Source: Candidatus Marinacidobacterium sp. (GTDB lineage: Bacteria; Acidobacteriota; Vicinamibacteria; Marinacidobacterales; Marinacidobacteraceae). Taken from it: DNA of 64,000 nucleotides. Positions 592 to 63,600 of the stretch are shown piece by piece (position 1 is the stretch's first letter; each line of letters begins with the position of its first letter). The DNA lies in NCBI GenBank assembly GCA_965250045.1, contig OZ252286.1:434355-498354 (forward strand), given 5' to 3'. The position numbers and the translations under genes were made by a program. The notes under the pieces are model-generated. The model was not told the DNA's origin and searched no databases. It was given only the letters and a program-made list of their open reading frames with translations.

Positions 592-821
592 TGCCCGCGC
601 CAGGGGCCCAACACCCAATCCTCCCTTCCCGGATGGCACCGCCGGGGAGGGAACGCCGGCCAGTTCTCCCGGTGGGGGCCTTCAGACCGGCACCGCTGCC
701 CGCAGGGCAGCGAAACGCACTGCGTTCCTTACCCGGATGGCACCGCCCGCACGGGAACGCCGACCTCCGGTCGGCACCGCCGCGCGGAGCGCGGCGAAAC
801 CGCACAAACTCAATACTGGAC
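592..821. repeat. Intergenic cluster of REP-like palindromic units (family D): GGGAACGCCGGCCAGTTCTCCCGGTGGGGGC and GGGAACGCCGACCTCCGGTCGGCACCGC.
   Basis: The same 25-45 bp palindromic cores recur at 1735-1800, 15470-15760, 21400-21620 and 37420-37500. Confidence 0.6.
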
Positions 822-3284: not shown

Positions 3285-4265
3285 GTGCCCGAATATCCCG
3301 ATGTCGAGCTCTACCGCTGGGCGGTTGGGGACCGGATCGTCGGGGCGCGCCTCTCGTGCTTCCGGATCGCCTCACCGCATCTCCTCGCTTCGGTCGAGCC
3401 GGCGCCCGAGGCACTGGTCGGCCGCCTCGCCACCGGGGTGCAGCGGATCGGCAAGCAGCTCGTAATGGAGTTCGAAGAGGACCTGTTCTGCGCCGTCCAC
3501 CTGGCGGTGGCGGGGCGGTTCCACTGGACCGCGAGTTCCGGCTCCGTGAAACCGGTGCGTGTGTCTCCGCGCGGCAATCTGGCCGTGTGGACTTTCGAAT
3601 CCGGCCCGGTGGAAGGCGGGCACCTCCGGCTCGTCGAGAGGAGTCCCAAGAAACGGGCCTCCATCCGGGTCGGTCGCGGAGAAGAGCAGCTTCGGGCGCT
3701 CGATCGGGGCGGCCTGGAGATCCCCGGTTCCACCCGGGAGGCGTTCGCGGCCCGGCTCGCGGGTCTGACCAGCACCATCAAGCGCGTACTGACCGAACCG
3801 GCCCGCTTCGCGGGAATCGGAAACGCCTATTCCGACGAGATCCTGCATCGCGCCCACCTGTCGCCTTCGAAGCGCGCCGGCAGCCTCAACGACGGGGAGG
3901 TCGGACGGCTGCACGGGGCGGCCGAGTCCGTGCTCACTCAATGGGCGGCAAAGCTCCAGGACGAGTGCGGGAGGGCTTTTCCCACCGGCGTCACTGCTTT
4001 CCGCGAGGGAATGGCCGTTCACGGCCGCTTCGGCAAGCCGTGTCCCGACTGCGGCTCCCCGGTGCAGCGGGTTCGACGCGCCGAGAACGAGTTCAACTAC
4101 TGCGCGACGTGCCAGACCGGCGGACGACTGCTCGCCGACCGTGCGATGTCGCGGCTGCTGCGGAAGAAGTGGCCGCGGACGCTCAAGGCGGCCGAGGAAC
4201 GTCGGCGGCGAGTGAGGGGTACAACTTCTGAGCCGCCATCCGAGCAGGAGCCCGAATCAGCTTGA
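3285..4265 (+). CDS. Fpg/Nei-family DNA glycosylase (formamidopyrimidine or endonuclease VIII-like)
   Basis: GTG start gives (M)PEYPDVELYR, matching the canonical PELPEVE N-terminus with catalytic Pro2. C-terminal zinc finger CPDCGSPVQRVRRAENEFNYCATCQ. The upstream 165 codons of ORF 2790..4265 are antisense to the SDR gene. Confidence 0.85.
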   Translation: MPEYPDVELYRWAVGDRIVGARLSCFRIASPHLLASVEPAPEALVGRLATGVQRIGKQLVMEFEEDLFCAVHLAVAGRFHWTASSGSVKPVRVSPRGNLAVWTFESGPVEGGHLRLVERSPKKRASIRVGRGEEQLRALDRGGLEIPGSTREAFAARLAGLTSTIKRVLTEPARFAGIGNAYSDEILHRAHLSPSKRAGSLNDGEVGRLHGAAESVLTQWAAKLQDECGRAFPTGVTAFREGMAVHGRFGKPCPDCGSPVQRVRRAENEFNYCATCQTGGRLLADRAMSRLLRKKWPRTLKAAEERRRRVRGTTSEPPSEQEPESA

Positions 4266-4354
4266 GCAAGGCGGAGCCCCCGGGAGCTCAGGTCCTGGGA
4301 ATGGTTGACACTTGCACATTCGGCACGAACAGACTAGTCTCCTGTCTAGTCAGC

Positions 4355-4630
4355 ATGACGAAGAACACCATGAGCAACCGATGGCAGGTTCAGACCGCCA
4401 AGGCCCGATTCAGCGAGTTTCTGGAACGAAGCCTGGACGAAGGACCCCAGATTGTTACCCGGCGCGGAGTCGAGACCGCGGTACTCGTGCCTATTGAGCA
4501 ATGGCGTCGCCTCGAGCGCATGACCAAACCCGATTTGAAGCAACTACTTCTCTCACCGGACGCTCGCACCGACTCCTTGACGCCACCTCGACGTCGATTC
4601 TCCCGGCGCCCGCCTCCGGATCTCGACTAG
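4355..4630 (+). CDS. Phd/YefM-family antitoxin
   Basis: MSNRWQVQTAKARFSEFLERSLDEGPQIVTRRGVETAVLVPIEQWRRLE matches the Phd/YefM fold pattern. Immediately upstream of a PIN toxin. Alternative start at 4370. Confidence 0.7.
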   Translation: MTKNTMSNRWQVQTAKARFSEFLERSLDEGPQIVTRRGVETAVLVPIEQWRRLERMTKPDLKQLLLSPDARTDSLTPPRRRFSRRPPPDLD

Positions 4631-4634
4631 CTCC

Positions 4635-5045
4635 GTGTATCTCCTCGACACGAATGTCGTCTCGGAACTCCGTCGCCAAAGACCTCATCCCGCGGTCGAG
4701 GAATGGATTCGACCAATACCCACAGAAAAGCTCCTTCTCTCGGCCATGACGGTCGGCGAAATCCAGGCCGGAATCGAGATCACCCGGGAACAGGACCGTT
4801 CCAAAGCCAAGGAACTCGAGGTGTGGCTTGATCAGGTGATCGCCAGGCACCAGATTCTGGTCCTTGATGCCCCGGTGATGCGGGAGTGGGCTCGCCTCAT
4901 GCACCGGACATCGGACACGCTGATTCAGGATGCATTGATTGCCGCAACCGCCGCAGTGCACCGATTGACCGTGGTAACCCGGAATGTCCGGGATTTCGAA
5001 CCGTTCGGTGTCGGGACACTCAATCCGTTTCGTCATCAGGCATAG
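4635..5045 (+). CDS. vapC: VapC-type PIN-domain toxin
   Basis: GTG start 4 bp after the antitoxin stop. (M)YLLDTNVVSE... contains PIN acidic residues. Confidence 0.85.
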   Translation: MYLLDTNVVSELRRQRPHPAVEEWIRPIPTEKLLLSAMTVGEIQAGIEITREQDRSKAKELEVWLDQVIARHQILVLDAPVMREWARLMHRTSDTLIQDALIAATAAVHRLTVVTRNVRDFEPFGVGTLNPFRHQA

Positions 5046-5085
5046 CTGTCACCCCCGCGAACGTCGGCGGCCGTGTCATCCGGGG

Positions 5086-5160
5086 TTGGCAGGGGGTGCG
5101 GCACTCACGTTGGCAGGGCGCAGCGTCCTCGGCGCTGGTTTCGCGCTCCCGCGCGTGCCG
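5086..5160. repeat. Family-C REP-like element (CACGTTGGCA...GCGCTGGTTTCGCGCTCCCGCGCGTGCCG). It diverges from full copies after about 5160.
   Basis: Fuller copies at 37320-37500 and 63410-63600 continue ...AGAGGTCAGCGTTCCAAGCCGTCCCCGCGCTT, which is absent here. Confidence 0.55.
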
Positions 5161-5419
5161 GGCCCCTATAGGATCGCGGGCGTCATGTGGGAGTTGGTTT
5201 TCCAGTTCCCGCGACCTCAAGTGAGGTTGGCCTATCCGCCGGGAGTATCAGCCGGCCCCGGTGCTGCGAGCACCTGCGGTGGACCCCGTACCCCGACGGA
5301 TGGCCGTGATGGCACACCCTGTGGAGAGTTTGCGCCAATCGAGCGCCCATATAGGGCTTGGCTGCCATCGCGGCAAGGCGGACCTTTTTACGGAGCGGAA
5401 GCTCAAGGGAACACCCGCG
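5161..5419 (+). ncRNA. Candidate IS110-family bridge (guide) RNA locus in the left noncoding end. This is a hypothesis.
   Basis: The noncoding span (extent approximate) lies between the putative element junction and the transposase ATG. IS110/IS621-group elements are known to encode a roughly 180-nt structured bridge RNA in this position. Confidence 0.3.
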
Positions 5420-6691
5420 ATGGAAGAGAAGGTTTTTTCCTGTTTCGTTGGGATCGACTGGGGCGAGAAGAAGCACCAGGTGTGCATATTGGATGGTGCG
5501 GGGAGGGAGCTGGGAAGCCGCTCCTTTTCGCACCAGGGCAAGGGCCTGAAGGCGCTGGTCAAGTGGCTGCTGGAGAAGGCGGACGCGGGGCCGGAGTCGG
5601 TGGCGGTAGCGATCGAGCGGCCTGACGGGCCGGTGGTGGCGACGCTGCTGGCGGCGGGGTTCGCGGTGCATGTGATCAACCCGCGGCAGTCGAGCAATCT
5701 GCGGAAGTTCGTTTCCCATGCGGGGCACAAGGACGACCATCGGGACGCGGGGATGCTGGCGGGGGCGGCGAGGACCCACCGTCAGGTGATGCGTCGGCTG
5801 CGGCCGCATCCGGAGTTGATCGAGCGGCTGCGGGAGCGGACGAAGACGGCGGACCGTCTGCTCCGGGAACAGCTGCGGCAGTGCCAGCGGATTCGGAACG
5901 CGCTGGTGGACTTCTTCCCGCAGATGCTGGAAGTGGCGAGCAAGCTGAAGCATCTGGGGCAGCCCTTGTTCTTTGAGATCTGGGAGAAGGCTCCGACGCC
6001 GGCCGCGGCGCGGAAGGTGCGGCGGTCGACCTGGGCGTCGCTGCTGCAGCGCTACGGGGTGAAGCGGATCTCGGCGGAGCGGGTGTTCGAGCTGTTCCGA
6101 GAGGAGCCTCTGACGGTGGCGCCGGGGGCGACCGCGGCGGCGGTGGAGACGATTCGGACGGCGCTGACGCTGTTGCGGGTGGTGAACGCGGAGGTCGCGC
6201 GGGCGGAGGAGCAGATGACGCAGTTGCTGGATGCGCTGTCGGAGACGGAGGAGGTTGGGGGCGGCCCGGCGGCGCCGGGTCCGGATCTGGTCACCATCCT
6301 GCGGTCTCGGAAGGGGCTGGGAGACAAGTCGCTGGCGCGGCTGTTCGCCTGGGCGTTCGAGGCGGTGTGCGGCGGCGACTACCGCCGCCTGCGAGCGGCG
6401 TCGGGGGTGGCTCCGGTGGGGGAGCAGTCCGGGACGGTGACCCGAGCTCGTATCCGGCGCTCGGTGCCCTACTCTTTGCAGCAGGCGGCCTACATTCTGG
6501 CGCGGGGGGTGTTGCGGTGGGACGAGGAGGCAAAGGCGTACAACCGGAAGCTGAAGGAGGCGGGGAAGACGACGGCGCGGCGGCAGCGCGGGATCGCGGA
6601 CAAGCAGTTTCGGGTCTTGTGCGCGATGGTGCGCACCCGCACCCTCTTCGACCCGAACTTCCGTGGCCGGAGCGGGAGGGCCGCCGCCTGA
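5420..6691 (+). CDS. IS110-family transposase (DEDD recombinase)
   Basis: MEEKVFSCFVGIDWGEKKHQVCILD is the N-terminal RuvC-like DEDD motif of IS110 transposases. 423 aa. Confidence 0.9.
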   Translation: MEEKVFSCFVGIDWGEKKHQVCILDGAGRELGSRSFSHQGKGLKALVKWLLEKADAGPESVAVAIERPDGPVVATLLAAGFAVHVINPRQSSNLRKFVSHAGHKDDHRDAGMLAGAARTHRQVMRRLRPHPELIERLRERTKTADRLLREQLRQCQRIRNALVDFFPQMLEVASKLKHLGQPLFFEIWEKAPTPAAARKVRRSTWASLLQRYGVKRISAERVFELFREEPLTVAPGATAAAVETIRTALTLLRVVNAEVARAEEQMTQLLDALSETEEVGGGPAAPGPDLVTILRSRKGLGDKSLARLFAWAFEAVCGGDYRRLRAASGVAPVGEQSGTVTRARIRRSVPYSLQQAAYILARGVLRWDEEAKAYNRKLKEAGKTTARRQRGIADKQFRVLCAMVRTRTLFDPNFRGRSGRAAA

Positions 6692-6756
6692 CGGCGCGCT
6701 GACGCTCCGCCCGGCGGAACCGTTTCCTCAGACCGGCCTTTTGCTCCAGGTGTTGG

Positions 6757-6982
6757 TGTGGGAAGGGTGGGAAGGGCGCACGCGCTGCCCCCGCGTTGCG
6801 GGCTACCGCTCCCCGTCCTGGCGGGAGGCGTGCGCGCTTTCCACGCTTTCCACACCCGCCGCCGCCACTCGTTCCTTGCCTGTGGGAAGGGTGGGAAGGG
6901 CGTCCGCGCCCTCACCCACGCACCGCACCGGCCCCCAGCGCGCTTGCCGAGCACGCGGGCGCGCTTTCCACGCTTTCCACAG
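6757..6982. repeat. Two tandem roughly 124-bp units. Each carries a G-quadruplex-type motif GGGAAGGGTGGGAAGGG and an imperfect complementary arm GCGCGCTTTCCACGCTTTCCAC.
   Basis: G4 motifs at 6760-6776 and 6884-6900. Partner arms at 6832-6856 and 6959-6982. Confidence 0.7.
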
Positions 6983-7065
6983 GACCCCGCCGCCATTCCT
7001 GTCGCACTGCCCCGCCGCAGAACAGGCACGCTCTCCCACCCCGCCCCAGCCCCTCCGCCGCCAGC

Positions 7066-7110
7066 CGCCGGAAAAAACAAAATGGCCGCAAACTCAACGG
7101 GTTTGCGGCC
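7066..7110 (-). terminator. Rho-independent terminator for the minus-strand DUF4013 operon
   Basis: Perfect 10-bp stem GGCCGCAAAC/GTTTGCGGCC with a 7-nt loop. On the minus strand it is followed by ATTTTGTTTTTTCC. Confidence 0.75.
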
Positions 7111-7205
7111 CTGCCGCATGACCCACGGCCCTCTGTTTACCCCCTTGCATTCTCATGGAGAGTCCACCGGGAGAACTGGCCGGCGGTCCCTGAGCTGATC
7201 CGCGG

Positions 7206-7973
7206 TCAGGCGACTCCCGGCTCCACGCGGACGCCCATCAGCCGTCCGGTGTGGCCCACCGCCGCTCCGGCGGCCGTGATCCCCCAGAAGTGGCCCGGGA
7301 TCGCGCCGATCAGGCACAGGAGGAAGGTGAGGTCCGAAACGATCGCGAACAGGATCAGGGTCAGCAGCATCACGACGTAGGTGCCGAAACTGCCGCGAAT
7401 CCACGCGATGTTCTCGTTCAGCCGGAAAGCCGCGGTGAAGCGGCCCGTCGCCGCCAGTTGCATGATGCCCGCCGGGATCAGCGCCTTGGCGATCAGTGCC
7501 GCGAACACGAGGAAAAAGACGGAGGTGATGCTGCCCAGGATCGAGGTCACTACCACCGCGGGTGAGCCCATGGACTGCCCGATCACCGCCCACAGGATCC
7601 CGATCCCCACGACAGCCACACCCATCGCGATGACGGCCAGCGAATACCCGAGGACCACCCCCAGCGCCTTGAGCCCGTCGGCCAGCAGGCCGCCGAAATC
7701 ATCCCAATCGGGCATCGGGTGCTCGTCACCCCGCAGGGTTCCCCGGGCCGTCCGCACGGCGAAGCCGAGGAGCGCGAGCAGCCCAAGGCCGAACAGGGGA
7801 ATGAGGAGAACCATGAGGCTGCCGATCAGGAACTTCGACAGCGCCTTCGGGTCCCGAAAGGCAAAGCCGAACAGCTGGCCGATGTCGAATCGCTCCGGCG
7901 CCGGGGGAGTCGGCGGTGGAGGTGGAGGCGGCGTCTGCTCGCCGGTAGTCGGAACTGGCTGGTCTTCGGTCAT
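7206..7973 (-). CDS. DUF4013-like polytopic membrane protein (paralog 1 of 3)
   Basis: Shared motifs [30 protein letters not shown] and multiple TM helices. SD GGAAGGAAAA precedes the ATG. Pro-rich N-terminus. Confidence 0.7.
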   Translation of the reverse strand: MTEDQPVPTTGEQTPPPPPPPTPPAPERFDIGQLFGFAFRDPKALSKFLIGSLMVLLIPLFGLGLLALLGFAVRTARGTLRGDEHPMPDWDDFGGLLADGLKALGVVLGYSLAVIAMGVAVVGIGILWAVIGQSMGSPAVVVTSILGSITSVFFLVFAALIAKALIPAGIMQLAATGRFTAAFRLNENIAWIRGSFGTYVVMLLTLILFAIVSDLTFLLCLIGAIPGHFWGITAAGAAVGHTGRLMGVRVEPGVA

Positions 7974-8089
7974 CGTTTTCCTTCCGGGGATACCAGGGTC
8001 ATTTCCCTTCCCCGAATCCAGTTAACGAATACGACTCGCGAAAGTTCTTGGGCGCTGGGGACGACGCGGGGTGCTGTCTCCACGGGCCG

Positions 8090-8764
8090 CTAGATCCCCA
8101 TCAGGCGGGCGACGCGGCCGAGAGCCACTCCCGAGGCGGCGTGACCCCAGAAGATGCCCGGGATCAGCCCGATCCCGCAGAGCGCGGAACTGGCGGTCGA
8201 CAACACCTCGATCAGGATCACGATCAACAGGAAGATGACGTAGGTCCCGAGGTGGGCCTGGATCAGGCGGAGGTTTTCCTGGAACCCGAACGCCGATCGG
8301 ATCTCGTTACTGGCGACCATCCGCGCCACGGCCACCGGCATGAGCGCGTAGGCGAGCAGGCTCAGCAGCAGAGTCAACGGACCGAGGACCACGTTCGCGA
8401 GCGCGCCCAGCACCGGGATGAAGCCGAGGATGCCGATGACTACCGTCAAGGCGAGCACCGGCAGGAGATAGCCGAGAATCACGCCGAGCACGCGCAGCCC
8501 GTCACCCAGTATCTGGCCGAGATCTCCCCACTCCGGCATCGGGTGCTCCTCGCCATTGCGGGCGCGCTGCGCCGTTTGGAACAAGAAGCCGAGGAGAGCG
8601 AGCAGACCAAGTCCGAAGAACAAGATGCCGATCACCGCGAGGCACCCGCCGAGGAACTTCGGCAAGGCTCGCGGATCCCGGAAGGAGCCTCCGAGAATGT
8701 CTCCGAGATCCAGGGTTCCGGACGCGGCGGCCCTGCCGTTCGGGGTGGGCTGTTCTTGGGTCAT
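8090..8764 (-). CDS. DUF4013-like membrane protein (paralog 2)
   Basis: Start MTQEQ preceded by GGGAGAA. Motifs SFRDPRALPKFL, GEEHPMPEW, DGLRVLG. Confidence 0.7.
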   Translation of the reverse strand: MTQEQPTPNGRAAASGTLDLGDILGGSFRDPRALPKFLGGCLAVIGILFFGLGLLALLGFLFQTAQRARNGEEHPMPEWGDLGQILGDGLRVLGVILGYLLPVLALTVVIGILGFIPVLGALANVVLGPLTLLLSLLAYALMPVAVARMVASNEIRSAFGFQENLRLIQAHLGTYVIFLLIVILIEVLSTASSALCGIGLIPGIFWGHAASGVALGRVARLMGI

Positions 8765-8794
8765 GTTGTTCTCCCTGTTCACCCGTAACGACTC

Positions 8795-9646
8795 TTAGTC
8801 GGCAGCGGTTTCCGCGGTTTCCGCGGCCTCCACCTCGATCCCCATGATGCGGCCGGCCTGGCCGATCGCGGCGCCGGAAGCCGCGAAGGCCCAGAAGAGG
8901 CCGGGCACCAGGCCCACCAGGAAGAGCGACAACGAGGCGCTGGCGAGGATCGCGAACAGAACGAGGATCAGCAGGAGCAGGATGTACGTCCCGGGGTGGA
9001 CGCGGATCCGCCGCAGACTGTTGACCCAACCGAGCGCCGGCCGGATCCGGCCGGTGGCCGCCAACTGCATGAACCCCGCAGGGAGGAGCGCCTTGGCGAA
9101 GCCGGCCAGCAACACCACGAACCAGCCGGTGACCACCAGACCGAAGACGGCGGACGCTCCGATGAGGCCGGCTCCCGCGACCGGGACCGCAACCAACTCG
9201 GGAAGGATTTCGCCAAAGACATCGGGGCCGACCCCGATCTCCGTCACGGCGCCGACGACCCCGGCCAGGACCCCGCCGGCAATCCCGACCGCGATCATCC
9301 CGATCAGGAAGCTCACCAGGAAGAGCCCGCCCCCGATTACCGCCACCACGGCGCCATAGACGAGGGCGACTGCCAGCGCCCGAAGACCGTCGGCGAGCTG
9401 GCTGGCCCACGCATTCCAGCCCGGCATCGGGTGTTCGTCGCCGCGCAGCGCGCCGCGCGCCGTCTGGACGGCGAACCCGAGCAGCAGCAGCAGCCCGAAC
9501 CCCAAAAACGGGATCAGCAGAACCGCAACACAACCGATCCCCCACTTGCGGAACGCCATCGGGTCTCGGAAGGCGAACCCGAACAGGAAGCCGAGGTCGA
9601 TTCGTGCCCGCGGCGTGCCGGCAGCGGTGGTTGCGTCGTCGTTCAT
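8795..9646 (-). CDS. DUF4013-like membrane protein (paralog 3)
   Basis: Motifs [47 protein letters not shown] hairpin sits immediately 5' of the start. Confidence 0.7.
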
Positions 9647-12441: not shown

Positions 12442-13422
12442 TCAGCGGGCCGAAGTCGGAGTCTCGCCGGCGAGGATCCGCCGGAAGACGCCCATTTCGA
12501 TATTCCCGCCGGAAACGACGCAGACGATCCGGCGCTTTCGGCCTTCTTCGCCCGGACGGATCGGCACCCGGCCGGCCACCGCCACCGCCACCGGGCTCGC
12601 GCCGGCGCCCTCCGCCACGATCCGGCTCCGCCCCGCCAGAATGCGAACCGCGTCTGCGATCTCGTCGGGGGACGCGAGCAGCGGCTCGTCGAGAAGCTCC
12701 TGGACCAGCGGCCACATCGGCTCCAATACGGTGTTCCCGCCGATCCCGTCCACGAAGCTGGGCTCGGTGTCGATCCATTGAGGAGACCCGTGTTCAACCG
12801 CGGCCACCACCTTGGCTGAGGTAGTGACTTCCACGGGATGCACGCGCGCCGCCGAGCCCTTCTGCCGGAGGGCGCTAGAAATGCCGCAGCTAAGCCCGCC
12901 GCCTCCGAAGGGCACCAGTACGGCGTCCACGTTCGGCAGATCTTCGAGAATCTCCAGTCCGGCGGTGCCGTTGCCGGCCATCACCGGATCCCCTTCCACC
13001 GGGTGAACGAAGCGGGCGTCGGATCCCGGGTGGGTGTGGGTGACGATCGCCTTCCACCACTCGGCGAACGGCTCCACCACGACCTCCGCCCCGAGGGCCG
13101 CGATGGCCTGACGCTTGTTCTCCGGGGACGTCTCGGGCACAACCACAGTGCAGGGGACTCCCCGCTCCCGCGCCATGAAGGCAGCCGCCTGTGCCCAGTT
13201 CCCGGCGCTCGCGGTCACCACCCCGCGCGAGAGTTCCGCGTCGTCAAAGGACGCGAAGAGGTTGGCGGCAGCGCGGATCTTGAAACAGGCGAAGGGCTGG
13301 AGGTTCTCCAGCTTCAGCCAGATCTCGTCCGGGCCGTCCACCGGCAGCCGGACCAGCGGCGTCCGGACCGCGTAGGGGGCGATCCGCGAACGAGCCGCTT
13401 CGATTTGTTCCAGGGGGATCAT
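12442..13422 (-). CDS. PLP-dependent threonine/serine dehydratase-family enzyme
   Basis: Lys-containing motif FACFKIRAA (PLP site) and glycine-rich loop PFGGGGL. About 320 aa, typical of catabolic threonine dehydratase or serine racemase-like enzymes. Confidence 0.8.
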   Translation of the reverse strand: MIPLEQIEAARSRIAPYAVRTPLVRLPVDGPDEIWLKLENLQPFACFKIRAAANLFASFDDAELSRGVVTASAGNWAQAAAFMARERGVPCTVVVPETSPENKRQAIAALGAEVVVEPFAEWWKAIVTHTHPGSDARFVHPVEGDPVMAGNGTAGLEILEDLPNVDAVLVPFGGGGLSCGISSALRQKGSAARVHPVEVTTSAKVVAAVEHGSPQWIDTEPSFVDGIGGNTVLEPMWPLVQELLDEPLLASPDEIADAVRILAGRSRIVAEGAGASPVAVAVAGRVPIRPGEEGRKRRIVCVVSGGNIEMGVFRRILAGETPTSAR

Positions 13423-13454
13423 GGGCGCGGGAGTCTAAGCGCGGACGCCGGTGG

Positions 13455-13555
13455 CGGCCCGGAGGCCGCCTGCCGCCCGGAGGCCGCCTGCCGCCCGGAG
13501 GCCGCCTGCCGCCCGGAGGCCAACTGCCGCCCGGAGGCCGACTGCCGCCGCGAGC
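13455..13555. repeat. Tandem repeat, 18-bp unit CCGGAGGCCGCCTGCCGC, about 5.5 copies. The last two copies are variant.
   Basis: Seen directly. Lies in the intergenic gap between the coaX stop and the dehydratase start. Confidence 0.85.
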
Positions 13556-13599
13556 GCGGCCGGACCATGCGCTACAAGTCGGGCGCTACGAGCCGGGCG

Positions 13600-15355: not shown

Positions 15356-15808
15356 CGGGTGAGCTTAGTGGGGGGACGCTCGGCCGGAACGGTGCCGGGC
15401 GGCCGGACCTGTCGACTCCCGGCGCCGCACGTTCGCTGTGAGAATGCCGGCGCGCGGGACGCCGACAGCCCGGATGGCGCGCTGGCCAGGGAACGTCGGC
15501 CAGTTCTCCCGGTGGGGGCGTTCACACCGGCACCGCCCCGCGGAGCGGGGCGAGAGGGCGTAACGCCAACCGCGAAGAAGCGCGGGGACGGCTTGGAACG
15601 CCGACCTCCGGTCGGCACCCGCTGGCCTCCGGCCAGCGCACGGCGCATCGGTAAGTGGCGGTGTGGTTCCCCTCTCGGCACGTGCCCCACCGGGAGAACT
15701 GCCCAGAGGTCGGCCTTCCCTCGCCGGCAGCGCCATCAGCAGGGCTGGGGTACCAGGGGAACCTCCCCTTGCACCGCAACTGGGCTGGCGTTCCCTCCCG
15801 GTTTCCGC
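15356..15808. repeat. Intergenic mosaic of family-D and family-C REP-like palindromic units
   Basis: Contains GGGAACGTCGGCCAGTTCTCCCGGTGGGGGCGTTCACACCGGCACCGCC (the exact inverse of 37420-37490), GGAACGCCGACCTCCGGTCGGCACC, and CCCACCGGGAGAACTG. Confidence 0.6.
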
Positions 15809-21313: not shown

Positions 21314-22070
21314 CCGGGTAACCGCTCTCTGCCGCCGGACCGAACGCCGGGGTGCGGCGGCCGGTCAAGACCGCGTTTTCAGGATCGGTGATGCGCGTTT
21401 GCCGTGAAGATGCAGCCCCGCGCGGGAACCCCAACGGTCCAGATGGTGCCGGCCGCAAGGGAACGCCGACCTCCGGCCAGTTGCTGTGAAAATGCAGTCG
21501 TGACCGGGACGCCGACAGTCCAGATGGCGCATGGGCAAGGGAACGCCGACCTCCGGGCAATTCTCCCGGTGGGGCCCGGCACCGCTGCGCGTAGCGCAGC
21601 GAACGGTGTCTTCACTCAGCTGTAGGGATGACGCCGCACGCCGCGGTTCCCGCCGGAAGCAGGACCACCCCCGAACTGGACGGAGGTTCTTCCCTGCCGC
21701 CCGCCTTCGGCGGGCTGTGCCGACCGGAGGTCGGCGTTCCCTTGCCTGCGCGTCGCTCTACATGGTGGCCTGGGTGCCGAGACGTACACCATCTCGGAAC
21801 TGCATTTTCATGCCCGGCGGGGTGGGCAGGCGGAGCCGATCATGGGGGTTCCTAGCTCTGCGGGCGGCGATGCCGGCCGGAGGTCGGCGATCCCTTTCGG
21901 CGTCACACCAACGGGGAACAGAGGCGGCCCTTAACAAGCCTGTGGTGAAACCCAGGCGGCCCAGTTCTCCCGGTGGGTGCTCCTCCCTCACGCGCCTTGT
22001 CAGCCGGACCCCCACCGGGAGAACTGGGCCTCACCGCTCTCGGCGCTCACCCGGGTTCCACCACCGGCTG
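21314..22070. repeat. Roughly 750-bp noncoding composite of family D, family B (about 21670-21855) and family A (21936-22073) repeat elements
   Basis: The family B unit is about 80% identical to 58031-58215. The family A unit has CAAGCCTGTGGTGAAACCC...GGTTCCACCACCGGCTGCTA ends. Confidence 0.7.
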
Positions 22071-28698: not shown

Positions 28699-28901
28699 AA
28701 CAGCCGGTGGACAGAGTCGCGTGGCGTTCGGCCGGCGATCCATCCCGGCTGAACCACGCCGCTTCGCGTTGTTCATCGTTCCGCTGCGGTCGAAATACTC
28801 CCGGGCCAGTTCTCCCGGTGGGGGCTCCTCCCTCGCGCGCCTTGTCAGCCGGGCGCCTCACCGGCCTCGGCACTCACGCCACTTTGCCCACCGGCTGTTA
28901 A
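28699..28901. repeat. Family-A MITE-like element (copy with a degenerate left end) between accD and folC
   Basis: GGCGATCCATCCCGGCTGAACCACGCCGCTTCGCG...GGGCCAGTTCTCCCGGTGGGGGCTCCTCCCTCGCGCGCCTTGTCAGCCGG...CACCGGCTGTTA. Confidence 0.7.
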
Positions 28902-32154: not shown

Positions 32155-32373
32155 ACAGCCTGTGGCAAAACCCACGCGGCGTTTGCCCGGCGATCCATCC
32201 CGGCTGAACCACTCCGCTTCGCTCCGTTCTGTGTTGCGTTTCGGTCGAAATACACTCGGGCCAGTTCTCCCGGTGGGGGCTCCTCCCTCACGCGTCTTGT
32301 CAGCCGGACCCCCACCGGGAGAACTGGGCCTCACCGGGCTCGGCGCTCACGTGGGTTTCACCACAGGCTGTTA
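32155..32373. repeat. Family-A MITE-like element, the best-preserved copy: about 219 bp with about 25-bp terminal inverted repeats and an internal long palindrome
   Basis: Left AACAGCCTGTGGCAAAACCCACGCGGCG. Right CGCTCACGTGGGTTTCACCACAGGCTGTT. Internal CCAGTTCTCCCGGTGGGGGCTCCTCCC...CCCCCACCGGGAGAACTGG. Confidence 0.8.
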
Positions 32374-33863: not shown

Positions 33864-34085
33864 TAGCAGCCTGTGGCGGAACCCGGGTGAGCGCCGAGAC
33901 CGGCCAGTCCTCCCGGTGGGGGCGAGGCACCCGGCTGACAAGGCGCGTGAGGGAGGAGCCCCCACCGGGAGAACTGGCCCTGGTGTATTTCGACCGAAAC
34001 GCAACGATGAGCGGCGCGAAGCGACGCGGTTCAGCCGGGATGGATCGCCGGCCGAACGCCGCCTGGGTTTCACCACAGGCTGCTA
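33864..34085. repeat. Family-A MITE-like element (inverted orientation relative to 32155-32373)
   Basis: TAGCAGCCTGTGGCGGAACCC...GGGTTTCACCACAGGCTGCTA. Internal GTGTATTTCGACCGAAACGCAACGATGAGCGGCGCGAAGCG. Confidence 0.8.
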
Positions 34086-37107: not shown

Positions 37108-37275
37108 CGGCGTTCGTCGGCTGGGGCGAACATGTCGCACCAGCAGGGCCGGCTGGAATCAACATGTCGCAGTAGCGGGCTCTCCCGGCTCGGACATGTC
37201 GCAGTAGCGAAGCCGGCTGGAATCAACATGTCGCAGTAGCGGGCTCTCCCGGCCCGGACATGTCGCAGTAGCGGG
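37108..37275. repeat. Tandem repeat, about 62-bp unit x about 2.7. It carries the 16-mer ACATGTCGCAGTAGCG four times plus a variant ACATGTCGCACCAGCA.
   Basis: Seen directly. Lies in the divergent promoter region between the Dyp peroxidase and the aminopeptidase. The inverse motif GCGCTACTGCGC is at 37077-37088. Confidence 0.85.
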
Positions 37276-37319
37276 GTCGGCTGGCGGAGGCTCCCGGCAT
37301 TGGCGGGGTTGGTGTCTTT

Positions 37320-37500
37320 CTGCAGGGGACGTCATCAGCGCAGGTTTCGCGCTCCCGCGCGTGCCGACCAGAGGTCAGCGTTCCAAGCCGTCCCCGCGCT
37401 TCCTCCCGGTCGGCGGTACGCGGTCTCGCCCCGCTGCGCGGGGCGGTGCCGGTGTGAACGCCCCCACCGGGAGAACTGGCCGGCGTTCCCGGCACGGCGG
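37320..37500. repeat. Family-C plus family-D REP-like unit
   Basis: GGTTTCGCGCTCCCGCGCGTGCCGACCAGAGGTCAGCGTTCCAAGCCGTCCCCGCGCTT ... GGCGGTGCCGGTGTGAACGCCCCCACCGGGAGAACTGGCCGGCGTTCCC. Confidence 0.65.
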
Positions 37501-40868: not shown

Positions 40869-41130
40869 TGAAACCCACGCGGCCCAGTTCTCCCGGTGGG
40901 GGCTCGGCCGGCGATCCATCCCGGCCAAACAGCCGGTGGCGGAGCCCACGCGGCGTTCGGCCGGCGATCCATCCCGGCTGGACCGCGTCGCTGCGCGCCG
41001 CTCATCGTTGCGTTTCGGTCGGAATACACTCGGTATTCCTCCCTCACGCGCCTTGCCAGCCGGGCGCCTCGCCCCCACCGGGAGGACTGGCCGGCCTCGG
41101 CGCTCACGCGGGTTCCACCACAGGCTGTTG
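40856..41130. repeat. Family-A MITE-like element (composite copy with nested partial duplications)
   Basis: TAACAGCCTGTGATGAAACCCACGCGGCCCAGTTCTCCCGGTGGGGGC...GGTTCCACCACAGGCTGTTG. Contains two GGCGATCCATCCCGGC modules. Confidence 0.75.
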
Positions 41131-42342: not shown

Positions 42343-44835
42343 ATGCTCCATGAATTCGCCGAGGCGCTGAAGAGCCTTTCCAAGCGGCCGGGGTTCGCCC
42401 TGCTCGTGTGCGTTCCCCTCGCCCTCGGCATCGGGGCGACCTCGACCGTTTTCTCGGCGGTATATGGCGTCTTGCTCAAGGCTCCGGCGTACGACGAGCC
42501 CGAGCGTCTGGTGCAGGTGTGGGAGCGGCGCCCGCGGCTACCGATGCCGGACGAGGTGGCGGCCTTTTCGACCGACCACTTCCGGGAGTGGCGGGACGCC
42601 AACACCGTCTTCGACGGGATGGCGATGTACGGCGACCGGCCGGTCGCCTACCGCGGGCTCGCCGGAATGCCCGGGGAGCCGCGCCCCCTCTTCGCCGAAC
42701 AGGTCTCGCCGGAACTCTTCGAGATCCTGGGCGTTTCGCCGCACCCTGGTCGCGCCTTCCGTCCCGAAGAAGCGACACCGGGACGCGACGCGGTGGTCAT
42801 CCTCGGTCACGCCTTCTGGACGCGGGAGTTCGGCGGCGACCCGGCGGTCGTCGGCGAAATGCTGCGCCTGGACGACCGCAATTTCGAAGTCATCGGAATC
42901 GCGCCGCGCGACTTCGGGTTTCCGATTCCGACCACCGAGATCTACCTCCCCTACCCGACGCGGCCAGCCGCCAATCTTCAGCCGGGGCAGGTTCGGCTCG
43001 AACTCGTGCAGGTGGTCGGCCGGCTTCGGGACGGCATCAGCATCGAGCAGGCGGAAGCCGAAGCGGCGGCGCTGATTGCCCGGCTGAGCGAGGAAAGCGA
43101 AATCCAGCGCATGATGAACGAAGGGGTGACGGTGCACCTGAGTTCGTTCACCGAACGATCCACCCGGCGCATCCGCCAACCGCTCATCGCGCTCTTCGGG
43201 GTGACGCTGCTCGTTCTGCTCATCGTGTGCGGCAACGTGGCCAACCTCCTGCTCACCCGGGCCGCCTGGCGGCAGCGCGAACTGGCAGTGCGGAGCGCCC
43301 TGGGCGCCGGCCGCTCGCGGCTGCTCAAGCGGCTGTTCGCGGAGAGCGTGCTGCTCGCCGGCGCGGCGGGGACGCTGGGGGTGCTGCTGGCCGTGGTTGG
43401 GGCCAGAATCGTTCGTTCGCTCACCGTTTTGGGCCTGCCGCAACTGGCGGCCGCCGGCGTGGACGCCCGCGTCATCGCCTTCACCTTCGGGATCGCCGGC
43501 CTGGCGGCCCTGGTGTTCGGAACGCTGCCGGCGCTGCGCGCCTCTTCCCGGGATCCCTCAGCGGCCCTCGACGCTTCGGCCCGCGGCGAGTCCACCGCCC
43601 TGGGCGGCAGCACACGTGGCGTAGGGCGCCGCGGACTGTTCGCCGCCCTCCAACTGGCCCTGGCGCTGCCGCTCTTGATCGGAGCGGGACTGCTGACCAA
43701 GAGCTTCCTGGCTCTCGTCAGCGCGCCACCCGGCTATGAACCCGCGAACACCGCGGTCTTCGAAGTACAGCTCGCGGCCAGCCGGTATCCGGATGCGGAA
43801 GCACAGACGGCGGTCCTCGACCGCATCCGCGAGTCGCTGGCCGCGATTCCGGGGGTGAACCAGGCCGGCATCGTGGACACCCTGCCGCTGAGCGGCGAAC
43901 GCGCGGTAATCGGCTTCCAGCGGATCAGCGAGGATCCGATCACCGACCCCAACCAGGTTCCCCGGGCCCTGCTCCGCCGGGTCTCGCCCGGGTATTTCCG
44001 CGCCATGGGCATTCCCCTGCGCGAGGGACGGGTGTTCGAGCAGACGGACCGCGCCAACCCGGCCGGGGTATCCGTCGTGAACCAGAGCCTCGTCGAGCGC
44101 TACCTCTCCGATCCGCCCGTGGGTCTGGAACTGCGGGGTCTGGGCGAGATCGTCGGCGTGGTCGGCGACGTGTACGAAGAAGGCGCGGACAGTCCGCCGG
44201 AACCGATCCTCTACCGCCTGATCGGGGATCCCCGGATACCCGCCCCCCGTGAGGTGACCAACATGAGCGTGGTCCTCCGCCATGCGGCCGGCGCCTCGGT
44301 GATGCAGACGGCGGCGGCGCGACTCAAGGAAGTGGATCCCGAACTCGCCGCCCTGAACCCACGTACTCTCGGGGACCGCATCCGCGAATCGGTTGCGCAG
44401 CCCCGGCTCTACGCGCTCCTCCTCGGCGCCTTTGCCATCGCCGCGGCCCTCCTCGCCGCCTGGGGTGTCTTCGGGGTGGTCGGCTTTCAGGCGAACGCCC
44501 GCATTCCGGCGCACGGCGTACGGATGGCGTTCGGCGCCACGCCTACGGACATCCGCCGCCTGGTTCTCGGGGACGCCCTGCGGATCGCCGCGCTCGGTCT
44601 CCTGCCGGGGCTTTTCCTGGTCTTCTTCCTGGTGCGCATCGCCCGCAGCGAGCTGAGCCCGCTCCTCTTCCAGGTCACCCCGCTGGACCCCGCCGTGTAC
44701 GTCCTGGTCCCGCTCCTGCTCCTGGTGGCGGTAGTCGCGGCCGCCCTCCAGCCGGCCGCCACCGCCGCCCGCCTCGACGTGGTGCAGGCGCTCAGGTCCG
44801 AACATCCGCGGCCCATGAGAAGCTGGTTCGCCTGA
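42343..44835 (+). CDS. ADOP-family ABC transporter permease (duplicated FtsX domains, MacB-like periplasmic domain)
   Basis: 830 aa. N-terminal MLHEFAEALKSLSKRPGFALLVCVPLALGIGATSTVFSAV. Two FtsX-like 4-TM modules. Confidence 0.85.
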   Translation: MLHEFAEALKSLSKRPGFALLVCVPLALGIGATSTVFSAVYGVLLKAPAYDEPERLVQVWERRPRLPMPDEVAAFSTDHFREWRDANTVFDGMAMYGDRPVAYRGLAGMPGEPRPLFAEQVSPELFEILGVSPHPGRAFRPEEATPGRDAVVILGHAFWTREFGGDPAVVGEMLRLDDRNFEVIGIAPRDFGFPIPTTEIYLPYPTRPAANLQPGQVRLELVQVVGRLRDGISIEQAEAEAAALIARLSEESEIQRMMNEGVTVHLSSFTERSTRRIRQPLIALFGVTLLVLLIVCGNVANLLLTRAAWRQRELAVRSALGAGRSRLLKRLFAESVLLAGAAGTLGVLLAVVGARIVRSLTVLGLPQLAAAGVDARVIAFTFGIAGLAALVFGTLPALRASSRDPSAALDASARGESTALGGSTRGVGRRGLFAALQLALALPLLIGAGLLTKSFLALVSAPPGYEPANTAVFEVQLAASRYPDAEAQTAVLDRIRESLAAIPGVNQAGIVDTLPLSGERAVIGFQRISEDPITDPNQVPRALLRRVSPGYFRAMGIPLREGRVFEQTDRANPAGVSVVNQSLVERYLSDPPVGLELRGLGEIVGVVGDVYEEGADSPPEPILYRLIGDPRIPAPREVTNMSVVLRHAAGASVMQTAAARLKEVDPELAALNPRTLGDRIRESVAQPRLYALLLGAFAIAAALLAAWGVFGVVGFQANARIPAHGVRMAFGATPTDIRRLVLGDALRIAALGLLPGLFLVFFLVRIARSELSPLLFQVTPLDPAVYVLVPLLLLVAVVAAALQPAATAARLDVVQALRSEHPRPMRSWFA

Positions 44836-63069: not shown

Positions 63070-63409
63070 GGTTCCGGCCTGCCACTGTATCAGGGTGCGC
63101 TCGGCGATTCTTGTGGGAAGCCTGCAGACCAAAGTGACGACCCGTAGGCTGGGAACTAGGGTTCAGACCGGCACCGCGGCCCGACGGGCCGCGAACTACG
63201 CAGCACCCGAGAGCTGGATGGTCGGGACGCCGCCCATAGGGCATTCACCCCGCCCCGCGCCCACGTCCCACGGGGCCGCTCCCGACGGTGGAAGGCCTTA
63301 CAAAACGCGTGGGACAAGTTTTGGAGTGGCGAACAGGAGAGCCGCAAACGCCCCGGGTAGGGCGGAGCGGTAAGCGGTCGCGACATTCGAGGTTGGGAAA
63401 GGGTGGGGA

Positions 63410-63600
63410 ACTCACGTTGGCATGGCGTAGCATCATCGGCGCTGATTTCGCGCTCCCGCGCGATGCCGGCCGGAGGCCGGCGTTCCAAGCCGTCCCCGCG
63501 CTTTTGTTCCGGGGGGCGCTGTGCGATTCGCCGCGCTCCGCGCGGCGGTGCCGGTGCGAACACCGGCGTTCCCAGACTGGTGGGCCCCTCCGCAGATCGA
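63410..63600. repeat. Family-C REP-like element, full copy
   Basis: ACTCACGTTGGCATGGCG...GCGCTGATTTCGCGCTCCCGCGCGATGCCGGCCGGAGGCCGGCGTTCCAAGCCGTCCCCGCGCTT...GGTGCCGGTGCGAACACCGGCGTTCCC. Confidence 0.7.

What the first reader, a model, noticed from the sequence alone, without database searches (positions are those of the whole stretch)
5161..5419. IS110-family element whose roughly 259-bp left noncoding end is a candidate bridge RNA
A DEDD IS110 transposase (5420-6691) lies downstream of a roughly 259-bp noncoding stretch with no plausible ORF. IS110/IS621-group elements encode a structured bridge RNA in exactly this position, which programs target and donor recognition. The element also abuts a family-C REP-like repeat that looks truncated relative to its paralogues at 37320 and 63410, and many IS110 members target REP sequences. 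The 500-bp structured region 3' of the transposase (6692-7200) could instead hold the ncRNA if the element is IS1111-like.
Basis: partly seen in the sequence, partly recalled or inferred. Interest (0 to 1): 0.65.

Follow-up and report, generated by a model that had tools for sequence, protein, structure and literature searches.

The report
IS110 insertion sequence with bridge RNA
The noncoding stretch upstream of this transposase gene very probably encodes a bridge RNA, the guide RNA that tells an IS110-type mobile element where to insert; it is a clear but ordinary new example of a mechanism described in 2024.

Summary
The element runs from 5167 to 7163, with a CC core dinucleotide at each junction (about 2.0 kb). 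Its ends were set using two near-identical copies, ten more distant copies, and 13 element-free copies of the target motif in the window.

The 253-nt left end (5167-5419) is conserved in every relative. It folds into a 5' stem-loop and two stem-loop domains, each with an internal loop.

- **Target loop:** carries GCCGGCCCC, which matches the left flank plus the first core base, and CGGUGG, complementary to the core plus the right flank.
- **Donor loop:** carries UGGAGAGU, which matches the right end of the element, and UAUAGG, complementary to the core plus the left end.

Strand polarity, core inclusion and the "handshake" dinucleotides follow the published IS621 rules. Across lineages the left-target guide changes with the left flank. 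In the one lineage with a different right flank, the right-target guide has changed to match it.

The 3' noncoding region is variable cargo that two relatives lack, so the IS1111-like alternative is rejected. The transposase keeps the DEDD and Ser catalytic residues. RNA expression and recombination activity were not tested. This is a new member of a known kind.

The parts
5067..5164 (+). Left part of the host REP-like repeat that the element interrupts. Its last bases, GCCGGGCC (5157-5164), are the left target (LT).
   Evidence: 81% identical to 63374-63471. The same repeat family flanks copies L008 and L013 in other genomes.
5165..5166 (+). Left copy of the core dinucleotide CC.
   Evidence: Junction comparison across 14 copies.
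5167..7163 (+). The IS110-group insertion sequence: 1997 bp, or 1999 bp counting one core copy.
   Evidence: 99.6% identical to L001 and L002 across this span. The ends are conserved in all homologues. ACCGGGAGAACTGG to the right of 7165 is a host motif that also occurs without the element.
5167..5419 (+). Left end (LE), noncoding, holding the bridge RNA gene. CC+TATA (5165-5170) is the right donor (RD). TAGGAT (5169-5174) is a candidate -10 box of the circle-junction promoter.
   Evidence: Conserved in 11 lineages. Junction geometry.
5181..5392 (+). Predicted bridge RNA transcript, about 210 nt. Both its start and its end are inferred, not measured.
   Evidence: MFE -101.7 kcal/mol, z = -2.69. 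Consensus structure.
5187..5212 (+). 5' stem-loop (SL1).
   Evidence: 6 of its 10 pairs show compensatory changes.
5234..5301 (+). Target-binding domain. Stem 5234-5248 pairs with 5288-5301, and there is an apical hairpin at 5261-5273.
   Evidence: coordinates.
5251..5259 (+). Left target guide (LTG), GCCGGCCCC. It has the same sense as LT plus the first core base, so it would pair with the bottom strand.
   Evidence: Matches 9/9 in L001 and L013, and 8/9 in the window, where the flank has G at 5162 instead of C. It changes with the left flank across lineages. Permutation test: observed 88 against 69.3 +/- 3.8, reached by 2 of 100000 shuffles.
5277..5284 (+). Right target guide (RTG), CGGUGG (5277-5282), the reverse complement of core plus RT (CCACCG). 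It is followed by the handshake dinucleotide AC (5283-5284), complementary to the last two bases (GT) of the element's right end.
   Evidence: Constant wherever RT is ACCG. In L036, RT is TCTCC and the loop reads GGAGAGG-AC.
5303..5374 (+). Donor-binding domain. Stem 5303-5311 pairs with 5366-5374, and there is an apical hairpin at 5332-5346.
   Evidence: Three stem pairs show compensatory changes once the alphaproteobacterial relatives are included.
5322..5331 (+). Left donor guide (LDG), UGGAGAGU followed by UU. [quoted passage not shown]
   Evidence: 8/8 match. G and A co-vary: UAGAGAGU occurs with TAGAGAGT in L007-9, L013 and L037.
5350..5356 (+). Right donor guide (RDG), UAUAGG, the reverse complement of core plus the LE start (CCTATA). 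It is followed by the handshake base G (5356), complementary to the last base of LT.
   Evidence: In L014, L036 and L037 the match extends to GUAUAGG against CCTATAC.
5225..5232 (+). 5' strand of a predicted outer stem (GGUUGGCC) that pairs with 5377-5384 (GGCGGACC) and encloses both domains.
   Evidence: Its sequence is mostly invariant. L036 and the alphaproteobacterial relatives have different sequences here that can still pair (the pairing was judged by eye). Support is weak.
5393..5410 (+). Small conserved hairpin, GAGCGGAAGCUC (5393-5404), then a ribosome-binding site, AAGGGA (5405-5410).
5420..6691 (+). IS110 DEDD/Ser recombinase, 423 aa. Catalytic candidates are D13, E66, D106, D109 and S337.
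6692..7139 (+). Variable cargo between the stop codon and the conserved right end. It holds two ~100-nt hairpins (6756-6856 and 6880-6983) and a minus-strand terminator-like hairpin (7084-7110).
   Evidence: Absent or different in L006, L037, L011, L010 and L014. Folds. Terminator scan.
7140..7163 (+). Conserved right end (RE): CCCCCTTGCATTCTCATGGAGAGT. It contains the -35-like TTGCAT (7145-7150) and the left donor LD, TGGAGAGT (7156-7163).
   Evidence: Conserved in all copies. The Skermanella relative L038 has TTGACA at the same position.
7164..7165 (+). Right copy of the core dinucleotide CC.
7166..7195 (+). Right target (RT), ACCG..., and the rest of the host repeat module: ACCGGGAGAACTGGCCGGCGGTCC.
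   Evidence: The same module occurs 13 times in the window without the element, against 0.02 expected by chance.

Best explanation
Window 5167-7163 is an intact IS110-group insertion sequence. Its left noncoding end encodes a bridge RNA of about 210 nt.

**Proposed mechanism (by analogy with IS621)**

1. The element excises as a circle. This joins the right end to the left end across the CC core.
2. The join places a conserved -35-like box (TTGCAT) 17 nt upstream of TAGGAT, forming a promoter that would drive the RNA and the transposase.
3. The RNA folds into a 5' stem-loop plus two stem-loop domains, each with an internal loop.
4. The target loop reads the host site GCCGGCCC-CC-ACCG. [quoted passage not shown]
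5. The donor loop reads the circle junction TGGAGAGT-CC-TATA in the same way.
6. A recombinase tetramer (DEDD plus Ser) exchanges strands at the CC core and inserts the element into a REP-like host repeat.

**Shown here:** the element boundaries, the conserved structure, the guide complementarity and its co-variation with the flanks, and the catalytic residues.

**Inferred:** transcription, the promoter, the ends of the RNA, and recombination activity.
For: **Boundaries**
- Two copies with an identical transposase sit at other sites and share 99.6% identity over 5149/5230-7188.
- Ten more lineages share the ends.
- The motif CCCCCACCGGGAGRACTGG occurs 13 times in the window without the element, against 0.02 expected. 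This places the true right end at GGAGAGT|CC.

**Structure**
- The RNAalifold consensus has SL1 and two domains.
- 95.2% of pair cells are paired, against 35-40% with partners slid.
- When relatives at 37-39% protein identity are added, the domain stems are 94% paired with 7 compensatory pairs, a value reached by 0 of 500 shuffles.

**Guides**
- LTG matches 9/9 in L001, L013 and L037, and 8/9 in the window.
- Cognate LTG-flank pairings beat shuffled pairings: 88 against 69.3 +/- 3.8, reached by 2 of 100000 shuffles.
- RTG CGGUGG matches CCACCG in 13 sites. L036 has RT TCTCC and RTG GGAGAGG.
- The LDG and the right end co-vary G/A. RDG UAUAGG matches CCTATA.
- The handshake AC matches the donor GT, and the handshake G matches the target C.
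- Polarity, core inclusion and handshake rules are as published (PMC11208160; PMC11208158).

**Relatives**
- Skermanella, Labrenzia and Sinorhizobium elements show the same layout and matching guides.

**Protein**
- Pfam hits. IS621 structure 8WT6 matches at E=3.4e-7, with D, D-x-x-D and SG aligned.
Against: - No expression or activity data exist for this element.
- No Rfam family matches the region.
- Most stem pairs in the close family never vary, so covariation support for the two domain stems rests on three distant relatives. The outer stem has almost none.
- The window copy sits in a site with one LTG mismatch (G at 5162).
- The -35 and -10 boxes are weak by E. coli standards: 3/6 and 4/6.
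- The transposase scores just below the NCBIfam cutoff (134.5 against 140 bits).
- HMMER placed the IS621 glutamate three residues away from E66. Assigning E66 as the catalytic residue is my own reading of the AIE/CIE motif.
- The lineages are related, so the permutation result is not a true probability.
Confidence: 0.88

Rival explanations
1. The left end is only a 5' UTR with promoter and transposase-binding sites. Its conservation reflects recent common descent, and no guide RNA is involved.
For: Most stem positions are invariant among the close relatives. No Rfam hit. No expression data.
Against: - The variable positions fall exactly in the loop segments, and they change with the flanking DNA of each lineage.
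- In L036 the RTG changed together with the right flank.
- SL1 and the domain stems show compensatory changes.
- The layout persists down to 37% protein identity.
Confidence: 0.06
2. The element is IS1111-like, and the guide RNA lies in the structured 3' region 6692-7163.
For: The 3' noncoding region is long (472 nt), folds strongly, and its hairpins fold better on the sense strand.
Against: - The region varies between relatives and is nearly absent in L006 (22 nt) and L037 (50 nt), which keep intact ends and the left-end RNA.
- I saw no complementarity to the target or donor there, though I did not search for it systematically.
- There are no subterminal inverted repeats of 7 bp or more.
- All four guides are accounted for in the left end.
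Confidence: 0.02
3. Part of the region (5261-5419) is coding, as an N-terminal extension of the transposase from the GTG at 5261 (476 aa).
For: An in-frame ORF exists. One database cluster, P0001, is annotated at 460 aa.
Against: - Homologues differ in this stretch by 1-, 2- and 13-nt indels.
- The Pfam domain starts at residue 10 of the 423-aa form.
- The ATG and the ribosome-binding site are conserved.
- Most clusters are 419-424 aa.
Confidence: 0.02

Closest known systems
IS621 (E. coli) and its bridge RNA; IS110 group of the IS110 family (Durrant et al. 2024, PMC11208160; Hiraizumi et al. 2024, PMC11208158)
   Same: - DEDD plus Ser recombinase.
- RNA encoded in the left end, ordered 5' stem-loop, then target loop, then donor loop.
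- LTG and LDG have the same sense as the top strand; RTG and RDG are complementary to it.
- The core dinucleotide is read by the guides.
- A 2-nt handshake follows the RTG and RDG and pairs with the other DNA.
- The -35 box lies in the right end and the -10 box in the left end across the core.
- Inserts into REP-like repeats.
   Different: - The core is CC rather than CT.
- RTG and RDG cover the core plus only 4 nt.
- The LDG reads the core through U-G wobbles.
- A possible outer stem encloses both domains.
- The recombinase is 423 aa against 326 aa, and sequence similarity is weak (E=3.4e-7, N-terminal domain only at full significance).
- The right end carries about 430 nt of cargo hairpins.
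ISPpu9 and ISPpu10 of Pseudomonas putida (PMC12288879; bioRxiv 10.64898/2026.03.19.712850)
   Same: IS110-family elements that insert into REP sequences. ISPpu9 copies can carry an extra small-RNA gene (Ssr9) downstream of the transposase. ISPpu10 target recognition involves a hairpin in the target DNA.
   Different: I took only the abstracts from these papers and made no sequence comparison. ISPpu10 is reported to lack the 5' stem-loop, which this element has.
Annotated 'IS110 family transposase' elements on plasmids of Skermanella sp. TT6, Labrenzia/Roseibium and Sinorhizobium meliloti (NZ_CP067422.1, NZ_CP045383.1, NZ_CP021832.1)
   Same: They share the left-end RNA layout, the donor end ...GGGGAGT|CC, the handshake AC, and guides that match their own flanks.
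   Different: Only 37-39% protein identity. Their targets and guide sequences differ. The hosts are Alphaproteobacteria, whereas the window comes from an unidentified genome with 68% G+C.
IS1111 group (IS4321, IS5075, IS1111)
   Same: DEDD recombinase and RNA-guided site choice.
   Different: In IS1111 elements the RNA lies in the right end, and there are 7-17-bp subterminal inverted repeats. Neither feature is present here.

Membership tests
IS110 group bridge-RNA systems | Recombinase with an N-terminal DEDD RuvC-like domain and a C-terminal Tnp domain carrying a catalytic Ser. | tested here: met
   PF01548 E=4.5e-32 over the full model and PF02371 E=7.5e-6. The alignment to IS621 (8WT6) places GID (D13), DxxD (D106, D109) and SG (S337) on the IS621 catalytic residues. 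E66 was assigned by eye from the AIE/CIE motif.
IS110 group bridge-RNA systems | Structured noncoding RNA encoded in the left end, upstream of the recombinase gene. | tested here: met
   The 253-nt left end is conserved in 11 lineages plus 3 distant relatives. The consensus fold is 94-95% paired, against 30-46% in slid controls.
IS110 group bridge-RNA systems | [quoted passage not shown] | tested here: met
   LTG GCCGGCCCC against GCCGGCCC+C. RTG CGGUGG against CC+ACCG. Both co-vary with the flanks. The LTG covers only the first core base.
IS110 group bridge-RNA systems | Donor-binding loop complementary to the RE-core-LE junction. | tested here: met
   LDG UGGAGAGU(UU) against TGGAGAGT+CC. 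RDG UAUAGG against CC+TATA. The LDG and the right end co-vary G/A.
IS110 group bridge-RNA systems | The same core dinucleotide at both junctions, with no terminal inverted repeats. | tested here: met
   CC flanks all 14 copies. The best end-to-end inverted match is 6 nt and out of register.
IS110 group bridge-RNA systems | Handshake guides that pair with the non-cognate DNA and not with the cognate DNA. | tested here: met
   AC after the RTG pairs with donor GT and not with target CC. G after the RDG pairs with target C.
IS110 group bridge-RNA systems | Promoter rebuilt across the core in the circular form. | tested here: inconclusive
   TTGCAT-N17-TAGGAT is present at the modelled junction and the -35-like block is conserved. 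L038 has TTGACA at the same position. The hexamers are weak, and the scan tool cannot be run on a modelled junction.
IS110 group bridge-RNA systems | The RNA is expressed, binds the recombinase, and directs recombination. | not testable with these tools
   Requires RNA-seq and recombination assays.
IS1111 group | Guide RNA in the right end, downstream of the recombinase gene. | tested here: not met
   The right-end noncoding region is variable and shrinks to 22-50 nt in L006 and L037.
IS1111 group | Subterminal inverted repeats of 7-17 bp. | tested here: not met
   None of 7 bp or more between the first and last 70 nt of the element.
Any Rfam family | A match to a curated covariance model. | tested here: not met
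   No hit at gathering score anywhere in the window. In 4900-7400 there are only three chance-level hits with E of 1 or more.

The most novel reading that the evidence does not exclude
The two ~100-nt hairpins with conserved arms in the right-end cargo (6756-6856 and 6880-6983) may be a second functional RNA or regulatory module that travels with this IS110 lineage. Possible roles include controlling transposase or bridge-RNA expression, or excision, comparable to the Ssr9 small RNA of ISPpu9. The hairpins fold better on the sense strand, and one unit is present even in a relative with 51% protein identity. A related but less novel point is that this lineage keeps a fixed right-target guide, anchored on a host repeat module, while only the left-target guide diversifies.
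Probability: 0.2. Interest if true: 0.45.

Novelty: new member of a known kind. Interest (0 to 1): 0.3.

Why it matters
This result turns a generic "IS110 family transposase" annotation into a fully parsed RNA-guided recombination system: exact ends, a CC core, a target of about 14 nt, a donor, four guides and the handshake bases. The system comes from an uncultured high-G+C lineage that shares at most 39% protein identity with annotated relatives in the plasmid collection.

Such parsed orthologues are useful raw material for bridge-recombinase engineering. They also help explain how these elements colonise REP-like repeats. The set of related copies forms a small natural experiment, because the left-target guide changes with the left flank while the right-target guide stays fixed.

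It does not change current understanding of the mechanism.

Tried and rejected
1. **First boundary guess.** I initially placed the right end at ...GAGAACTGG|CC (7180) and defined two "target classes" inside a REP hairpin. I rejected this once 13 element-free copies of CCCCCACCGGGAGRACTGG were found and once the guides fitted only the GGAGAGT|CC boundary.
2. **By-eye guide guesses.** CCAGTTCC (5212-5219) turned out to be the 3' arm of SL1, GGAUGGCC (5298-5305) is stem sequence, and the RTG is not inside the hairpin GCACC.
3. **Rfam.** No hits at gathering score or at permissive thresholds.
4. **Genome collection scan.** Searching genome contigs with the protein found only one relative at 31% identity (L003). 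My covariance model finds no RNA in that locus.
5. **Metagenome scan.** A conserved 19-mer of the RNA gave 21 hits, all chance matches in unrelated contexts.
6. **Covariance model R1.** Built from 14 sequences, it finds only the known copy in the window. There is no orphan RNA, and the best other hit has E=0.3.
7. **Non-autonomous derivatives.** A search for other donor-like ends in the window found none.
8. **Host identification.** Not pursued. The only hints are an ADOP-family permease at 42343-44835 and 68% G+C. An acidobacterial-type host is my own guess from these and was not tested.

Full report
**Observation.** The ORF at 5420-6691 (+) is an IS110-family recombinase. Pfam DEDD_Tnp_IS110 scores E=4.5e-32 over the whole model and Transposase_20 scores 7.5e-6. 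NCBIfam "IS110 family RNA-guided transposase" scores 134.5 bits, just under its 140-bit cutoff. The stretch upstream has no credible ORF. The in-frame GTG extension from 5261 is contradicted by indels among homologues that are not multiples of three. Window 5067-5164 belongs to a host repeat that is 81% identical to 63374-63471 and stops where the element begins. So the described feature is present, although its edges needed correcting.

**Boundaries.** Two further copies encoding the identical protein lie in metagenome ERZ26167216 (L001 and L002). They share 99.6% identity with the window over 5149/5230-7188. Twelve look-ups of homologous proteins at 51-79% identity yielded ten more lineages, each with flanking DNA.

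- All copies share a left terminus, CC|TATAGGAT (TATACG or TATGGG in some).
- All share a right block, CCCTTGCATTCTCATGGAGAGT|CC|ACCGGGAG(A/G)ACTGG.

I first took ACTGG|CC as the right end, which was wrong. The motif CCCCCACCGGGAGRACTGG occurs 13 more times in the window without any element, against 0.02 expected, and again in L009, L010 and L014. It therefore belongs to the host target. The element is 5167-7163, flanked by the core CC at 5165-5166 and 7164-7165, giving 1999 bp counting one core copy. The first and last 70 nt share no inverted repeat of 7 bp or more.

**The RNA.** The left end is conserved from its first base to the ATG in all lineages. RNAalifold predicts these features (coordinates):

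- a 5' stem-loop at 5187-5212;
- a first domain at 5234-5301, with an internal loop and an apical hairpin;
- a second domain at 5303-5374 of the same design;
- a possible outer stem, 5225-5232 pairing with 5377-5384;
- a small hairpin and a ribosome-binding site just before the ATG.

On 11 sequences, 95.2% of pair cells are paired, against 35-40% when partners are slid. Compensatory changes are concentrated in the 5' stem-loop. The window sequence alone folds the same way, with z = -2.69.

Elements annotated only as "IS110 family transposase" on Skermanella, Labrenzia and Sinorhizobium plasmids share 37-39% protein identity and have the same layout. With these added, the four domain helices are 94% paired, against 30-46% slid, and show 7 compensatory pairs, a value no shuffle reached in 500 trials.

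**Guides.** The published rules for IS621 are as follows. [quoted passage not shown] The core is included in the pairing. Two handshake bases 3' of the RTG and RDG pair with positions 6-7 of the other DNA (PMC11208160; PMC11208158). The loops here fit these rules.

- **LTG.** On the 5' side of the first loop, GCCGGCCCC (5251-5259) equals the left flank plus the first core base. The match is 9/9 in L001 and L013, and 8/9 in the window, where the flank has G at 5162.
- **RTG and handshake.** On the 3' side, CGGUGG (5277-5282) is the reverse complement of CC+ACCG. The following AC is complementary to the donor's terminal GT and does not pair with the target's CC.
- **LDG.** In the second loop, UGGAGAGU (5322-5329) equals the right end, and the next UU would wobble-pair with the core.
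- **RDG and handshake.** UAUAGG (5350-5355) is the reverse complement of CC+TATA, and the following G is complementary to the last base of the left target.

**Co-variation between guides and DNA.** This is the strongest evidence.

- The LTG differs between lineages and follows each lineage's own left flank. The forms seen are GCCGGCCCC, GUCGGCCCC, GAAGGCCC, AGAGGCCCC, GCAGGCCCC, GCGCCCC and CUCGCCCCC.
- Summed contiguous pairing for cognate pairs is 88, against 69.3 +/- 3.8 for shuffled pairings. Only 2 of 100000 shuffles reached 88. The lineages are related, so this is not a true probability.
- The RTG is constant wherever the right flank is ACCG. L036 is the one lineage with a different right flank, CC|TCTCC, and its loop reads GGAGAGG-AC, which is exactly complementary.
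- The LDG and the right end co-vary: UGGAGAGU occurs with TGGAGAGT, and UAGAGAGU with TAGAGAGT.
- In the alphaproteobacterial relatives, all four guides again match their own ends and flanks. In Skermanella, for example, the LDG GUGGGGAGUC matches the right end GTGGGGAGT|CC, the RDG GUACAGG matches CC|TGTAC, and the RTG GGGGGGG matches CC|CTCCC with one G-T wobble.

**Promoter (inferred).** In the modelled circle, TTGCAT (7145-7150) lies 17 nt upstream of TAGGAT (5169-5174). The TTGCAT block is conserved in all right ends, even the 22-nt right end of L006. Skermanella has a perfect TTGACA at the same place. The hexamers are weak, and no sigma-70-like site exists in the integrated arrangement. 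That fits the IS621 model of a promoter rebuilt across the junction, but it remains untested.

**Protein.** The only solved structures that match are the IS621 (8WT6, E=3.4e-7) and ISCro4 recombinases. GID, DxxD and SG align with the IS621 residues D11, D102/D105 and S241-G242, which correspond here to D13, D106, D109 and S337. E66 (in the AIE motif) corresponds to IS621 E60 by my own reading of the motif.

**The 3' region.** Bases 6692-7139 contain two ~100-nt hairpins (6756-6856 and 6880-6983) and a minus-strand terminator-like hairpin (7110-7084).

- The region differs between relatives. L005 has one hairpin unit, L011 has none, L010 carries other host repeats, and L006 and L037 have almost nothing between the stop codon and the conserved right end.
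- It is therefore dispensable cargo and not the site of the guide RNA.
- The hairpins fold better on the sense strand in 10 of 11 units, and one unit is present in the relative at 51% identity. A function of their own is not excluded.

**Other searches.** Rfam gave nothing. A covariance model built from 14 sequences finds only this copy in the window, and finds the truncated copies L002 and L012. No other donor-like ends occur in the window. A metagenome scan with a conserved 19-mer returned only chance matches.

**Verdict.** This is a canonical IS110-group bridge-RNA element inserted in a REP-like host repeat. It is a new, divergent member of a kind described in 2024 and now well studied. Confidence in the assignment is about 0.88; the remaining doubt comes from the absence of expression and activity data. 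Interest is modest.

Noticed in passing
window 6756-6856 and 6880-6983: Two ~100-nt imperfect palindromes lie inside the element, with conserved arms (UGUGGGAAGGGUGGGAAGGGCG / CGCGCUUUCCACGCUUUCCACA) and variable tips. They fold 1-16 kcal/mol better on the + strand in 10 of 11 units taken from six elements. One unit also occurs in L036, a relative at 51% identity, and none occurs in L006 or L037. They are dispensable cargo of unknown function.
   Followed up: partly
window 7084-7110 (minus strand): An intrinsic-terminator-like hairpin, GGCCGCAAACCCGTTGAGTTTGCGGCC followed by ATTTTGTTTT, faces into the element from the right. It is conserved in L004, L005, L011 and L012, with some changes that appear to preserve pairing (judged by eye). 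It could block read-through from outside.
   Followed up: partly
window 660-678, 15500-15518, 15684-15702, 21961-22027, 28806-28824, 32261-32327, 33904-33977, 37461-37479, 40884-40902, 41072-41090: Thirteen element-free copies of the module CCCCCACCGGGAG(A/G)ACTGG are embedded in several repeat families. Compared with plain REP hairpins (for example 63462-63485), the module looks like an insertion of about 19 nt into the hairpin. Its origin is unexplained. None of the 13 is a perfect site for this element's left-target guide.
   Followed up: partly
L002 3812 (window equivalent 5230); L012 upstream of 1390: These are truncated copies. L002 lacks the first 63 nt of the element, which removes the left end and the 5' stem-loop. 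L012 lacks the left end, the 5' stem-loop and most of the target-binding domain. In L002 an assembly artefact cannot be excluded.
   Followed up: partly
L007 1228-1243: The same element as in L008 and L009 (three copies on one 4.2-Mb contig) sits here in a site whose left flank matches the left-target guide over only 6 contiguous bases, while the right flank matches fully. This is a half-matched or off-target insertion, as discussed in recent preprints.
   Followed up: no
window 4262-5045: A Phd/YefM antitoxin gene and a PIN toxin gene lie immediately upstream of the insertion site (Pfam E=6.4e-15 and 3.8e-17). The Skermanella relative L038 also has a PIN-domain gene directly upstream, probably by coincidence.
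   Followed up: no
window 7206-9646 (minus strand): Three tandem paralogous DUF4013 membrane-protein genes lie directly downstream of the element: 7206-7973, 8090-8782 and 8795-9646. Only the first was checked against Pfam. The other two are inferred from shared DNA repeats and the ORF list.
   Followed up: no
window 13421-13564 and 37127-37286: An 18-nt tandem repeat, (GCCCGGAGGCCGCCTGCC)n, and a 32-nt tandem repeat appeared in the repeat scan.
   Followed up: no
window 42343-44835: An ADOP-family duplicated permease (TIGR03434, E=2.6e-217), together with 68% G+C. To my knowledge this family is typical of Acidobacteriota, but the host was not identified and this was not tested.
   Followed up: no
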